NCBI RefSeq assembly: GCF_003334785.1
Contig: NZ_QOWV01000017.1
Reading direction: 5' to 3' (one strand)
Length of the DNA: 64,000 nt
From: Escherichia coli
Lineage (GTDB): Bacteria; Pseudomonadota; Gammaproteobacteria; Enterobacterales; Enterobacteriaceae
Shown here: positions 48,168 to 51,083 of the stretch, piece after piece
Layout: each line of letters starts with the position of its first letter
How positions within the stretch are numbered: position 1 is the stretch's first letter
The notes under the pieces: generated by a model
Seen by the model: the letters and a program-made list of their open reading frames with translations, nothing else
Database searches by the model: none
Told to the model about the DNA's origin: nothing
Program-made: the position numbers and the translations under genes

Positions 48168-49124
48168 ATGTCATACCCGCTTTTTGACAAAGACGAACAC
48201 TGGCATAAGCCAGAGCAGGCGTTTCTCACCGATGACCACCGGACCATTCTGCGCTTCGCCGTAGAGGCGCTAATGTCCGGTAAAGGAGCGGTGCTGGTGA
48301 CGCTGGTGGAGATACGCGGCGGCGCGGCGCGCCCGCTCGGGGCGCAGATGGTGGTGCGCGAAGATGGTCGTTACTGCGGTTTTGTCTCTGGCGGCTGCGT
48401 GGAGGCCGCTGCCGCTTTTGAAGCGCTGGAGATGATGGGCTCAGGCCGCGATCGCGAAATTCGCTATGGCGAAGGTTCGCCGTGGTTTGACATCGTTCTG
48501 CCCTGCGGCGGTGGGATCACGCTGACGCTCCATAAACTACGCTCGGCACAGCCTCTGCTCGCCGTGCTGAACCGCCTGGAACAGAGAAAACCGGTGGGGC
48601 TGCGCTACGATCCGCAAGCACAATCGCTGGTGTGCCTGCCCACGCAAACCCGGACGGGCTGGAATCTCAATGGCTTTGAGGTGGGGTTCAGGCCATGCGT
48701 CAGGCTGATGATTTACGGACGTTCTCTTGAGGCGCAGGCAACCGCGAGTCTTGCAGCAGCCACAGGCTATGACAGCCATATCTTCGATCTTTTTCCGGCC
48801 TCAGCCAGCGCTCAGATCGATACCGATACGGCGGTCATTTTGCTGTGCCATGATCTCAACCGGGAGCTGCCAGTGTTGCAGGCCGCGCGAGAAGCAAAAC
48901 CCTTTTATCTCGGCGCATTGGGCAGCTATCGAACCCACACGTTACGTCTGCAAAAGCTCCACGAGCTGGGATGGTCCAGGGAGGAAACAACGCAAATCCG
49001 GGCACCCGTCGGGATATTCCCCAAAGCCCGGGATGCGCATACTCTGGCACTCTCCGTGCTGGCAGAAGTCGCCTCTGTACGTCTCCATCAGGAGGAGGAT
49101 TCATGCCTGCCCCCGTCGTCCTGA
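48168..49124 (+). CDS. paoD: XdhC-like molybdenum cofactor insertion chaperone
   Basis: 318 aa; follows paoC with a 9-bp gap and AGGAGG SD. Confidence 0.85.
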   Translation: MSYPLFDKDEHWHKPEQAFLTDDHRTILRFAVEALMSGKGAVLVTLVEIRGGAARPLGAQMVVREDGRYCGFVSGGCVEAAAAFEALEMMGSGRDREIRYGEGSPWFDIVLPCGGGITLTLHKLRSAQPLLAVLNRLEQRKPVGLRYDPQAQSLVCLPTQTRTGWNLNGFEVGFRPCVRLMIYGRSLEAQATASLAAATGYDSHIFDLFPASASAQIDTDTAVILLCHDLNRELPVLQAAREAKPFYLGALGSYRTHTLRLQKLHELGWSREETTQIRAPVGIFPKARDAHTLALSVLAEVASVRLHQEEDSCLPPSS

Positions 49125-49513
49125 TCCTTGCGGCCGGGCGTGGAGAGCGCTTTCTCGCCTCCGGGGGAAATACCCATAAGTGTATCGGCTGGCGTCAGTC
49201 CCCGGAGGTTGCGCCTTATCGCTGGCCATTTGAAGAAAACGGGAGAACTTTCGACCTTGCGATTGAACCGCAGATTACGACTAATGATCTGCGTCTGATG
49301 TTGAGGCTGGCTCTTGCCGGCGGAGGAATAACAATTGCCACTCAGGAAACTTTCAGGCCATATATTGAAAGCGGTAAGCTTGTATCGCTGCTTGATGACT
49401 TTCTTCCACAATTTCCGGGCTTCTATCTGTATTTCCCACAGCGTCGCAATATTGCACCAAAGCTCCGCGCCCTGATTGACTACGTCAAAGAATGGCGGCA
49501 GCAATTGGCTTAA
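49103..49513 (+). pseudogene. yagP: yagP remnant: short MobA/MocA-like N-terminus fused to the C-terminal part of a LysR-type regulator
   Basis: 136-codon ORF from MPAPVVLILAAGRGERF (nucleotidyltransferase-like motif) continuing into a LysR C-terminal-like sequence; overlaps paoD 3' end by 22 nt in another frame. Confidence 0.55.
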
Positions 49514-49639
49514 ATGTCTGCACCTGCACTGCCTGATGTCAGAACAGTATTTTGATGAATTGCCAAGGTTACAATGGCACAAATACGGCACAGGAGGAAA
49601 CGTGGTGTATTTAAATATGGGGTAACTCTTTGATTTTAA

Positions 49640-49715
49640 TGGTGCCGATAATAGGAGTCGAACCTACGACCTTCGCATTACGAATGCGCTGCTCTACCAA
49701 CTGAGCTATATCGGC
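49640..49715 (-). tRNA. thrW: tRNA-Thr (anticodon CGU)
   Basis: Reverse complement GCCGATATAGCTCAGTTGGTAGAGCAGCGCATTCGTAATGCGAAGGTCGTAGGTTCGACTCCTATTATCGGCACCA folds as cloverleaf with 7-bp acceptor stem, CGT anticodon and encoded CCA. Confidence 0.92.
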
Positions 49716-49829
49716 CCTGAAAGGACATGTTCACGAACGTGAATCACGGTGGACAAGGTTAAAACTAACCGGGCGATGCGTCAATGGCCTTGTGAATCAA
49801 ATGGCTACTTTTGCATCACCCGGTTTTAT

Positions 49830-51083
49830 TTACGCACGAATGGTGTAATCACCAATGCCGATCCACTTGTAAGTGGTCAGTGCTTCCAGCCCCATTGGGC
49901 CACGCGCGTGGAGTTTTTGTGTGCTTACCGCCACTTCCGCACCCAGACCAAACTGGCCGCCGTCGGTAAAACGCGTAGAGGCGTTAACGTAAACAGCGGA
50001 CGAATCCACTTCGTTAACAAAACGCTGGGCGTTGCGCATATCGCGGGTCAGGATCGCATCGGAGTGTTGTGTGCCGTGTTCACGAATATGGGCGATGGCA
50101 TCGTCAAGATCGCTGACGATTTTGACGTTCAAATCTAATGACAGAAACTCATCGTCATACTCTTCGGCTTTAACAGCAACCACCTTCGCAGGGCCTGCCT
50201 GCAACTGCGCCAGTGCAGCTGCATCTGCGTGTAATGTCACGCCACTTTCCGCCATTTGTTTGCTTAATGCGGGCAGGAAGCTATCGGCGATGTTTTTATT
50301 CACCAGCAACGTTTCAACCGTATTACATGTGCTCGGACGCTGAGTTTTCGCGTTGACGATCACTTTTAATGCTTCAGCGATCTCTACACTTTCATCAACG
50401 TAAATATGGCATACGCCTATACCACCTGTGATCACCGGGATTGTCGACTGTTCACGGCACAGTTTATGCAAACCAGCGCCACCACGCGGGATCAGCATGT
50501 CGATGTATTTATCCATACGCAGCATTTCACTGACCAGCGCACGGTCAGGATTATCAATCGCCTGCACGGCACCCGCCGGTAAGCCGCAGGATTTCAGGGC
50601 GTCCTGAATCACCGCCACCGTTGCAGCGTTAGTGCGACACGTTTCTTTGCCACCGCGCAGGATCACCGCATTACCGGTTTTCAGGCACAGCGAAGCGACA
50701 TCAACCGTCACGTTCGGGCGCGCTTCATAAATCACGCCAATAACCCCCAGCGGTACGCGACGACGCTCAAGACGCAGGCCGCTGTCCAGTACGCCGCCAT
50801 CGATTACCTGCCCCACCGGATCGGCGAGGTTGCACACCTGACGTACATCGTCGGCAATGCCTTTCAGCCGTGCGGGCGTCAGTGCCAGACGGTCAAGCAT
50901 CGCTTCGCTAAGGCCATTGGCTCGCGCGTCAGCAACATCCTGGGCGTTAGCGTTGAGGATGATTTCGCTTTGTGCTTCCAGTTCATCGGCGATTTTTTCC
51001 AGCACGCGATTTTTTTCGCGGCTGGAGAGTTGCGCTAATTTATACGAGGCTTGCTTCGCGGCAATGCCCATTTGTTCCAGCAT
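49830..51083 (-). CDS. proA: gamma-glutamyl phosphate reductase
   Basis: 417 aa; aldehyde-dehydrogenase-like fold. Confidence 0.95.

What the first reader, a model, noticed from the sequence alone, without database searches (positions are those of the whole stretch)
49103..49513. yagP looks like a chimeric scar: MocA/MobA-like N-terminus fused to a LysR C-terminal fragment
The first roughly 25 residues (MPAPVVLILAAGRGERFLASGG) match the glycine-rich N-terminal motif of MobA/MocA-type molybdopterin nucleotidyltransferases, which would be a logical partner for the PaoABCD molybdoenzyme directly upstream. The rest aligns with the C-terminal effector domain of LysR regulators. That pattern suggests an ancestral deletion or rearrangement that removed a mocA-like gene and the 5' part of a LysR gene, next to the thrW integration hotspot.
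Basis: partly seen in the sequence, partly recalled or inferred. Interest (0 to 1): 0.5.

Follow-up and report, generated by a model that had tools for sequence, protein, structure and literature searches.

The report
yagP: deletion-made chimeric gene remnant
yagP is a leftover made when a 6.1-kb deletion in an E. coli ancestor joined, in frame, the first 26 codons of an already broken molybdenum-cofactor nucleotidyltransferase gene to the last 110 codons of a LysR regulator gene; this is ordinary gene decay, here traced to the base.

Summary
The ORF at 49103-49513 (136 aa) overlaps the end of paoD by 22 nt.

- **N-terminal part.** Residues 1-26 are the orthologous start of a 177-197 aa MobA/MocA-like nucleotidyltransferase gene (Pfam NTP_transf_3). 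That gene sits intact, with the same overlap, after paoD in 26 other enterobacterial species-representative loci.
- **C-terminal part.** Residues 27-136 equal residues 190-299 of an intact 299-aa LysR regulator ("LysR2"). About 420 complete E. coli genomes, including O157:H7, still carry LysR2 next to thrW.
- **The join.** In those long-form genomes, 6,133 bp lie between the stub and the LysR2 breakpoint. They hold an MFS transporter, an alpha/beta hydrolase, another LysR gene, an SDR and small ORFs. Both breakpoints are the 5-nt repeat CATAA, read as His-Lys in both genes, so one microhomology deletion gave the in-frame fusion.
- **Correction.** That deletion did not remove the mocA-like gene. 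The gene was already cut to 81 nt in every E. coli genome searched (0 of 5,426 intact).

The fusion is present in 2,675 of 5,426 complete genomes, K-12 included. It lacks the DNA-binding domain, half the effector domain and nearly all of the transferase, so it is most likely a non-functional scar. Interest is low.

The parts
48168..49124 (+). paoD, the XdhC-family molybdenum cofactor insertion chaperone. Its last 22 nt overlap the yagP start.
   Evidence: ORF list; RefSeq annotation of the identical strain 1303.
49091..49099 (+). Shine-Dalgarno-like GGAGGAGGA, 3 nt upstream of the yagP ATG and inside paoD coding sequence. It is inherited from the paoD/mocA-like coupled gene pair.
   Evidence: Read from the sequence. 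The same motif and 22-nt overlap occur in L003, where the downstream gene is intact.
49103..49179 (+). Remnant of the pao-linked MobA/MocA-like nucleotidyltransferase gene. It supplies codons 1-25 and the first two bases of codon 26, and carries the LAAGRGER nucleotide-binding motif.
   Evidence: tblastn to 26 intact syntenic genes; PF12804 in the L003 orthologue; alignment A1.
49175..49179 (+). Deletion junction: the 5-nt microhomology CATAA, present once in the stub and once in LysR2 of long-form genomes, in the same codon phase (His-Lys).
   Evidence: blastn segments overlap by exactly these 5 nt; sequences inspected.
49180..49513 (+). 3' part of the LysR2 regulator gene. It supplies the last base of codon 189, codons 190-299 and the stop, and is the C-terminal half of the effector-binding domain.
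   Evidence: Window 49175-49656 is 96.9% identical to L084 12199-12679. Only 2 amino-acid differences from LysR2 residues 190-299. Pfam PF03466. PGAP starts its pseudogene at 49175.
49514..49639 (.). Spacer between the yagP stop and thrW, collinear with the sequence downstream of intact LysR2 in long-form genomes.
   Evidence: blastn; sequence comparison (printout).
49640..49715 (-). thrW, tRNA-Thr(CGT), unoccupied by an island in this strain. It is the integration site for CP4-6 in K-12 and for other islands elsewhere.
   Evidence: ARAGORN; K-12 and EC1515 annotations.

Best explanation
yagP is a chimeric pseudogene made in two steps.

**Step 1 (older, shared by every E. coli genome searched).** The MobA/MocA-like nucleotidyltransferase gene that follows paoD and is translationally coupled to it in related enterobacteria was cut down to its first 81 nt. 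How this happened is unresolved.

**Step 2.** In a long-form ancestor the order was paoD, stub, MFS(-), alpha/beta hydrolase(-), LysR1(+), ykgR-like fragment, hypothetical(-), SDR(-), LysR2(+), thrW. A single deletion of 6,133 bp occurred between two copies of CATAA. One copy is in stub codons 25-26 and the other in LysR2 codons 188-189. Both read His-Lys in the same phase, so the product is an open 136-codon frame: 26 transferase codons followed by LysR2 codons 190-299. It inherits the strong ribosome-binding site and the overlapping start next to the paoD stop.

**Consequence (inferred).** The product has no winged-helix DNA-binding domain, no linker helix and only the distal half of the effector domain. 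It also keeps only the first strand and glycine loop of the transferase. It therefore should neither regulate transcription nor make a dinucleotide cofactor. PaoABC cofactor supply in E. coli depends on the unlinked mocA (ygfJ) gene.

Shown: both parent sequences, the junction and the population counts. Inferred: loss of function, and that the deletion arose by replication slippage or illegitimate recombination at the microhomology.
For: - **Parent 1.** Intact 177-197 aa ORFs begin with the same 26 residues at the same overlapping position after paoD in 26 loci. They belong to PF12804. Their best NCBIfam match is TIGR03310 MocA/YgfJ, below its cutoff.
- **Parent 2.** Long-form E. coli carry a 299-aa LysR regulator whose residues 190-299 differ from YagP residues 27-136 at 2 positions.
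- **Junction.** Window 48600-49179 matches L084 5492-6070 at 98.1%. Window 49175-49656 matches L084 12199-12679 at 96.9%. The two segments overlap by the 5 nt CATAA. Strain T-HYM1 keeps the unfused stub ACCCATAAATTA with otherwise window-like flanks.
- **Polarity.** The long form holds an intact LysR2 and cannot be derived from the fusion.
- **Counts.** 2,675 of 5,426 genomes carry the fusion and 424 carry the full long form. None has more than nt 1-81 of the transferase gene.
- **Decay.** A second, independent truncation of LysR2 exists in T-HYM1. Short-form alleles carry non-synonymous changes in the otherwise conserved LALAGGGIT segment and in the stub's GxGxR motif (K-12 R16C). Frameshifted variants are present in the protein collection. 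PGAP annotates a pseudogene.
Against: - The ORF is open in all 7 short-form alleles examined, and RefSeq K-12 keeps yagP as a CDS.
- One 2-D gel study lists a weak MASCOT match to YagP (PMC3342100). One transcriptome study lists yagP as up-regulated under carbon limitation (PMC6390033). A Keio screen lists delta-yagP among epetraborole-sensitive mutants (PMC12457515). Expression of the chimera is therefore not excluded.
- dN/dS cannot settle selection after the deletion, because too few substitutions are available.
- A single origin of the deletion was not shown on a strain phylogeny.
Confidence: 0.88

Rival explanations
1. One single deletion, ran from inside an intact mocA-like gene to inside the LysR gene and removed the transferase gene body and the LysR 5' part together.
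For: The fusion junction at nt 77-78 of the stub lies only 3-4 nt before the point where long-form genomes lose similarity to the intact gene at nt 81. The two breakpoints nearly coincide.
Against: - Long and intermediate forms with unfused LysR2, or with the MFS/hydrolase genes, already have the transferase gene reduced to 81 nt. Unrelated AT-rich sequence and the 3' end of the MFS gene follow it.
- No E. coli genome has more of the gene.
- The window's flanks match the long form on both sides of a clean 6,133-bp gap.
Confidence: 0.04
2. YagP is a functional new gene. The chimera is translated by coupling to paoD and does something, for example binds a ligand, or interferes with LysR-type regulators or with PaoD/MocA.
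For: - It has a strong Shine-Dalgarno and a start overlapping paoD.
- The ORF is open in 7 of 7 sampled alleles, and it is widespread (2,675 genomes).
- There are scattered expression and phenotype mentions.
- K-12 RefSeq keeps it as a CDS.
Against: - It retains only residues 190-299 of a 299-aa regulator. That is an incomplete half of a two-lobed effector domain (Pfam model positions 103-207 of 209) with no HTH.
- Non-synonymous changes hit the most conserved segment (R to Q, A to V and G to E in LRLALAGGG) in some lineages.
- Frameshifted variants occur.
- An open 411-nt frame is expected by chance at 1-2% within-species divergence.
- The ribosome-binding site lies inside paoD coding sequence, so its conservation says nothing about yagP.
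- The Keio deletion of yagP also removes the last 22 nt of paoD.
Confidence: 0.08
3. The N-terminal resemblance to MobA/MocA is a chance glycine-rich motif in sequence downstream of paoD.
For: Pfam does not call any transferase domain in YagP, and 26 residues is short.
Against: There is 54-92% identity over 22-26 residues, always at the same position and frame overlapping the paoD stop, in 26 independent loci where the ORF continues for 177-197 aa. DNA identity to L003 over 81 nt is 87.7%.
Confidence: 0.01

Closest known systems
MocA (YgfJ), CTP:molybdopterin cytidylyltransferase of E. coli, and the wider MobA-like NTP_transf_3 family (PF12804). Includes xdhC-mocA gene pairs such as B. subtilis pucA-pucB.
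   Same: The intact pao-linked gene of other enterobacteria has the LAAGxGxR N-terminal motif and the GHP and DIDT motifs, and matches PF12804 and TIGR03310. It sits directly after an XdhC-family chaperone gene, an arrangement described for other xanthine-oxidase-family enzymes (PMC2997495). PaoABC uses the cytosine dinucleotide cofactor made by MocA and handed to PaoD (PMC3909100).
   Different: It is only about 20% identical to K-12 MocA and scores 84.7 bits against a cutoff of 186. It is a distant paralogue whose nucleotide specificity is untested. In the window only 26 codons survive.
LysR-type transcriptional regulators (PF00126 HTH plus PF03466 substrate-binding domain). The nearest named model is YafC.
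   Same: YagP residues 27-136 are nearly identical to residues 190-299 of an intact 299-aa LysR regulator of long-form E. coli. That regulator aligns end to end with LysR models.
   Different: YagP lacks the HTH, the linker and the first half of the effector domain. The parent regulator is uncharacterised (YafC model 161.6 bits against a cutoff of 470).
Chimeric pseudogenes and fusion ORFs made by microhomology-mediated (illegitimate) deletion in bacterial genomes.
   Same: Two short direct repeats (CATAA), loss of one repeat and everything between them, both parents recoverable in related strains, and a location beside a tRNA integration hotspot with several other structural variants.
   Different: There is nothing unusual. 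The only curiosity is that both repeats encode His-Lys in the same phase, which keeps the frame open.

Membership tests
MobA/MocA-like nucleotidyltransferase (NTP_transf_3, PF12804) | N-terminal glycine-rich nucleotide-binding motif (L-A-A/G-G-x-x-x-R) | tested here: met
   YagP residues 8-16, ILAAGRGER, align with the motif in 7 intact pao-linked proteins and with K-12 MocA.
MobA/MocA-like nucleotidyltransferase (NTP_transf_3, PF12804) | Complete alpha/beta transferase domain of about 160-190 residues recognised by the family profile | tested here: not met
   Pfam finds no PF12804 hit in YagP and only 26 residues remain. The intact orthologue in L003 does match, E = 2.6e-23.
MobA/MocA-like nucleotidyltransferase (NTP_transf_3, PF12804) | Orthologous position: the gene starts overlapping the stop of the XdhC-family chaperone gene paoD | tested here: met
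   The position and frame match in 26 enterobacterial loci, and L003 shows the identical 22-nt overlap.
MocA proper (molybdenum cofactor cytidylyltransferase, TIGR03310 equivalog) | Score above the curated cutoff; CTP specificity | tested here: not met
   The intact orthologues score 83-85 bits against a cutoff of 186.45 and are about 20% identical to K-12 MocA. Nucleotide specificity cannot be tested with these tools.
LysR-type transcriptional regulator | N-terminal winged helix-turn-helix DNA-binding domain | tested here: not met
   There is no HTH hit in YagP. LysR2 residues 1-189 are deleted.
LysR-type transcriptional regulator | Complete LysR substrate-binding domain (PF03466, 209 positions) | tested here: not met
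   Only model positions 103-207 are present.
LysR-type transcriptional regulator | Descent from a full-length LysR gene | tested here: met
   Window 49175-49656 is 96.9% identical at the nucleotide level to the 3' part and downstream flank of the intact 299-aa LysR2 beside thrW in O157:H7 and EC1515.
Deletion-generated chimeric pseudogene | Both flanks collinear with an undeleted relative, with a short direct repeat at the breakpoints | tested here: met
   Window 48600-49179 and 49175-49656 map 6,133 bp apart in L084, and both ends carry CATAA.
Deletion-generated chimeric pseudogene | No purifying selection on the fused frame | tested here: inconclusive
   Few substitutions are available. Some lineages have 4 non-synonymous against 3 synonymous changes, including hits in conserved residues, but the ORF is open in 7 of 7 alleles.

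The most novel reading that the evidence does not exclude
The in-frame chimera is translated through coupling to paoD. Its product would be a 15-kDa protein, a transferase N-terminal strand and loop joined to half a LysR effector domain, that has been kept in half of all E. coli because it does something, for example modulating PaoD/MocA cofactor hand-over or titrating a small molecule.
Probability: 0.07. Interest if true: 0.4.

Novelty: new member of a known kind. Interest (0 to 1): 0.2.

Why it matters
The practical value is for annotation.

- **Annotation.** K-12 RefSeq still lists yagP as a protein-coding "LysR family substrate binding domain-containing protein", and transcriptome studies count it as a transcription factor. 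It is in fact a fusion of two gene fragments and cannot bind DNA.
- **Operon history.** The pao operon of the enterobacterial ancestor had a fifth, translationally coupled gene for a MocA-like transferase. E. coli lost that gene and now relies on the unlinked mocA.
- **Knock-outs.** Because yagP overlaps paoD by 22 nt, yagP knock-outs may also damage paoD. This matters for reading yagP phenotypes.

Beyond that it is a textbook example of microhomology deletion beside a tRNA integration hotspot.

Tried and rejected
- **Extent of the transferase remnant.** I looked for remnant sequence beyond nt 81 in long-form genomes. A 16-nt match (AGCCGTTTTAGAAAAT) was reached by 20 of 500 shuffles, so it is not significant.
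- **Mechanism of the first truncation.** I compared the long-form sequence right of the stub with the region downstream of intact genes in 80 loci. The only homology was to distant MFS genes, so the mechanism stays unresolved.
- **Terminator and promoter scan of 48900-49900.** It found no terminator and one chance-level promoter-like site.
- **dN/dS of the LysR segment.** The low ratios (0.07-0.18) reflect divergence between intact alleles. Only about one non-synonymous change maps to the yagP lineage, so this is uninformative about the period after the deletion.
- **Protein search with the C-terminal 113 aa.** It returned only short proteins (about 70-190 aa) from Paracoccus, Burkholderia and others, which briefly suggested a family of stand-alone LysR halves. 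Context look-ups showed three independent truncated copies at unrelated loci. One lies directly after IS21-family istA/istB genes, and one has an unrelated N-terminus. Other short hits come from contigs of about 1 kb. The idea was dropped. The absence of full-length proteins from that list, including E. coli LysR2 itself, looks like a property of the word-indexed search.
- **Literature.** Seven E. coli papers mention yagP and none discusses its origin.

Full report
**Where the window comes from and what is at the site.** The stretch 48600-49760 is 100% identical to E. coli strain 1303. The local order is paoC, paoD (48168-49124, +), the reported ORF (49103-49513, +), tRNA-Thr(CGT) thrW (49640-49715, -), then proA and proB (-). 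The ORF is 136 codons. It starts at an ATG that overlaps the end of paoD by 22 nt and is preceded by GGAGGAGGA. It corresponds to K-12 yagP (b0282). RefSeq K-12 annotates that gene as a CDS, [quoted passage not shown]. PGAP annotates the same sequence in strain 1303 and five other genomes as a pseudogene, [quoted passage not shown], starting at window 49175.

**The C-terminal part.** Pfam finds one domain only, LysR_substrate (PF03466). YagP residues 24-131 align to model positions 103-207 of 209, E = 1.5e-14. There is no helix-turn-helix.

**The N-terminal part.**
- A scan of one genome per species with PaoD returned 80 loci.
- In 26 of them, all Enterobacteriaceae, the first 26 residues of YagP match at 54-92% identity over 22-26 residues. 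The genera include Leclercia, Enterobacter, Franconibacter, Siccibacter, Silvania, Cedecea, Kosakonia, Atlantibacter, Citrobacter and Pseudocitrobacter.
- The match always falls at the start of the frame that overlaps or abuts the paoD stop. There that frame runs on for 177-197 residues.
- The closest copy (L003, whose PaoD is 89% identical) is a MobA-like NTP transferase, PF12804, E = 2.6e-23.
- Its best NCBIfam models are MocA/YgfJ (TIGR03310, 84.7 bits, below the 186-bit cutoff) and a related NTP transferase family.
- It is only about 20% identical to K-12 MocA but shares the LAAGxxxR, GHP and DIDT motifs.
- Weaker homologues sit after paoD in several Rhizobium-group loci.

**The intact LysR parent and the deleted segment.**
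- In one search many genomes matched only window 48600-49179. In O157:H7 and EC1515 paoD is followed by the same stub. After it come an MFS transporter (-), an alpha/beta hydrolase (-), a LysR regulator (+), a ykgR-like fragment, a hypothetical gene (-) and an SDR oxidoreductase (-). A second LysR regulator of 299 aa ("LysR2", +) follows, and then the thrW-side sequence.
- LysR2 reads ...PRELVNHKCIGWRQSPEVAPYRWPFEENGRAFDL... to the same C-terminus as YagP.
- Window 48600-49179 equals L084 5492-6070 (98.1%), and window 49175-49656 equals L084 12199-12679 (96.9%).
- The two segments overlap by five bases, CATAA. This repeat is present in the stub (ACC CAT AAA TTA, Thr-His-Lys-Leu, as in the intact genes). 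It is also present in LysR2 (AAT CAT AAG TGT, Asn-His-Lys-Cys, codons 187-190).
- Removing L084 6071-12203 (6,133 bp) reproduces the window: 1,030 of 1,057 aligned positions are identical and 3 are gap positions.
- Both repeats are in the same codon phase, so the fusion is in frame. YagP 1-26 comes from the transferase stub and YagP 27-136 equals LysR2 190-299.
- Strain T-HYM1 carries the unfused stub with the exact window-type sequence up to ACCCATAAATTA. O157 has an extra 1-nt deletion in the stub.

**Order of events.**
- The long form contains an intact regulator gene and cannot be derived from the fusion, so the fusion is the derived state.
- The transferase gene was already destroyed before that. 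No E. coli complete genome (0 of 5,426) has more than nt 1-81 of it.
- In long forms the sequence after nt 81 has no significant similarity to the intact gene.
How the first truncation happened could not be determined.

**Population picture.**
- The fusion is present in 2,675 of 5,426 complete genomes. This counts places covering at least 80% of 48600-49760, which must span the junction.
- The full 6.1-kb segment is present in 424 genomes, and the LysR2 5' part in 415.
- Roughly 500 further genomes have partial versions of the segment. Among them is T-HYM1, where a different deletion leaves a 231-nt LysR2 fragment.
- The remaining genomes match only the thrW part of the query, as judged from the spread sample.
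- The region between paoD and thrW is thus structurally unstable, in keeping with its position at a tRNA integration site (CP4-6 in K-12; other islands).

**Is the chimera functional?**
- It lacks the DNA-binding domain and half of the effector domain, and it keeps only the first strand and loop of the transferase. A regulator or transferase function is therefore not expected. This is an inference from the established domain organisation of LysR-type regulators and MobA-like transferases.
- Among seven short-form alleles the frame is open in all. One lineage has R to Q, A to V and G to E within the LRLALAGGG segment, which is conserved in all homologues, and Y to H near the C-terminus (H is also the LysR2 residue at that position). 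That is 4 non-synonymous against 3 synonymous changes. K-12 has R16C in the nucleotide-binding motif, and another allele has E15K and A19T.
- Frameshifted or truncated variants exist in the protein collection.
- These data fit neutral decay but are too few to prove it.
- Weak hints of expression exist. A 2-D gel MASCOT match of score 43 is reported in PMC3342100. A transcriptome study lists yagP (PMC6390033). A Keio screen also lists it (PMC12457515), although that deletion also removes the last 22 nt of paoD.

**Comparison with what is known.**
- XdhC-family chaperone genes paired with mocA homologues are described for other xanthine-oxidase-family enzymes, for example pucA-pucB and Arthrobacter pAO1 (PMC2997495).
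- In E. coli, PaoD is described as the last gene of paoABCD. It receives the cytosine dinucleotide cofactor from the unlinked MocA (PMC3909100).
- The present analysis adds that E. coli carries the stump of a fifth, coupled pao gene, and that yagP is that stump fused to a LysR tail.
- None of the seven E. coli papers that mention yagP discusses its origin.

**Verdict.** It is an ordinary deletion scar, useful for annotation and of low general interest.

Noticed in passing
L087 7180-7410 (E. coli T-HYM1, NZ_CP141767.1): There is a second, independent truncation of the same LysR2 gene. A different deletion leaves only a 231-nt 3' fragment next to thrW, while the MFS, hydrolase and LysR1 genes are kept. 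Other genomes end the segment at about 3.8 or 4.06 kb, some next to an AbiEii toxin gene.
   Followed up: partly
L028 8958-13390 (Frateuria defendens); L036 and L059 (Pseudoxanthomonas): The genes lost in the deletion (MFS transporter, alpha/beta hydrolase, a LysR regulator, SDR) also lie next to the pao genes in Xanthomonadales. MFS identity is 63-67% and hydrolase identity about 41%. This suggests a conserved pao-associated module, or co-transfer of it.
   Followed up: partly
L083 1-647 (metagenome contig, ENA ERZ28566407): This is a third allele of LysR2. It is 91.6% identical to the window in the shared part and has the same downstream spacer. It extends further 5' but carries an in-frame TAG where homologues have TDEEFDIV, so it looks like another decaying copy in an Escherichia-like genome.
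   Followed up: partly
L049 9994-10130 (Pararhizobium polonicum): Two short, high-identity fragments of a yagP/LysR2-type C-terminus lie about 1.1 kb downstream of paoD (FPQRRNTAPKMRGLITYVR at 74% identity, and a second piece at 52%). This hints that this LysR lineage is pao-linked outside the enterobacteria and is also decaying there.
   Followed up: no
L084 9901-9969 and the matching site in other long-form genomes: A 117-nt stretch is 90.6% identical to the ykgR gene region found elsewhere in most E. coli chromosomes. It is annotated as a ykgR fragment inside the deleted segment.
   Followed up: no
L094 1662-4558 (GCA_030678915.1, contig JAUUTZ010000034.1; the protein is named Paracoccus onubensis): A 74%-identical relative of the YagP LysR part is itself truncated to 185 aa. 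It lies directly after IS21-family istA/istB genes. Truncated copies also occur in Burkholderia cenocepacia. The protein search listed only short relatives and missed the full-length E. coli LysR2.
   Followed up: partly
L086 (K-12 MG1655, NC_000913.3 297381-297791): K-12 differs from the window by one base in the whole 1,040-nt comparison (window 49148 C to T). This changes Arg16 of the stub's GxGxR motif to Cys. In K-12 the CP4-6 prophage with intF lies between yagP and thrW.
   Followed up: yes
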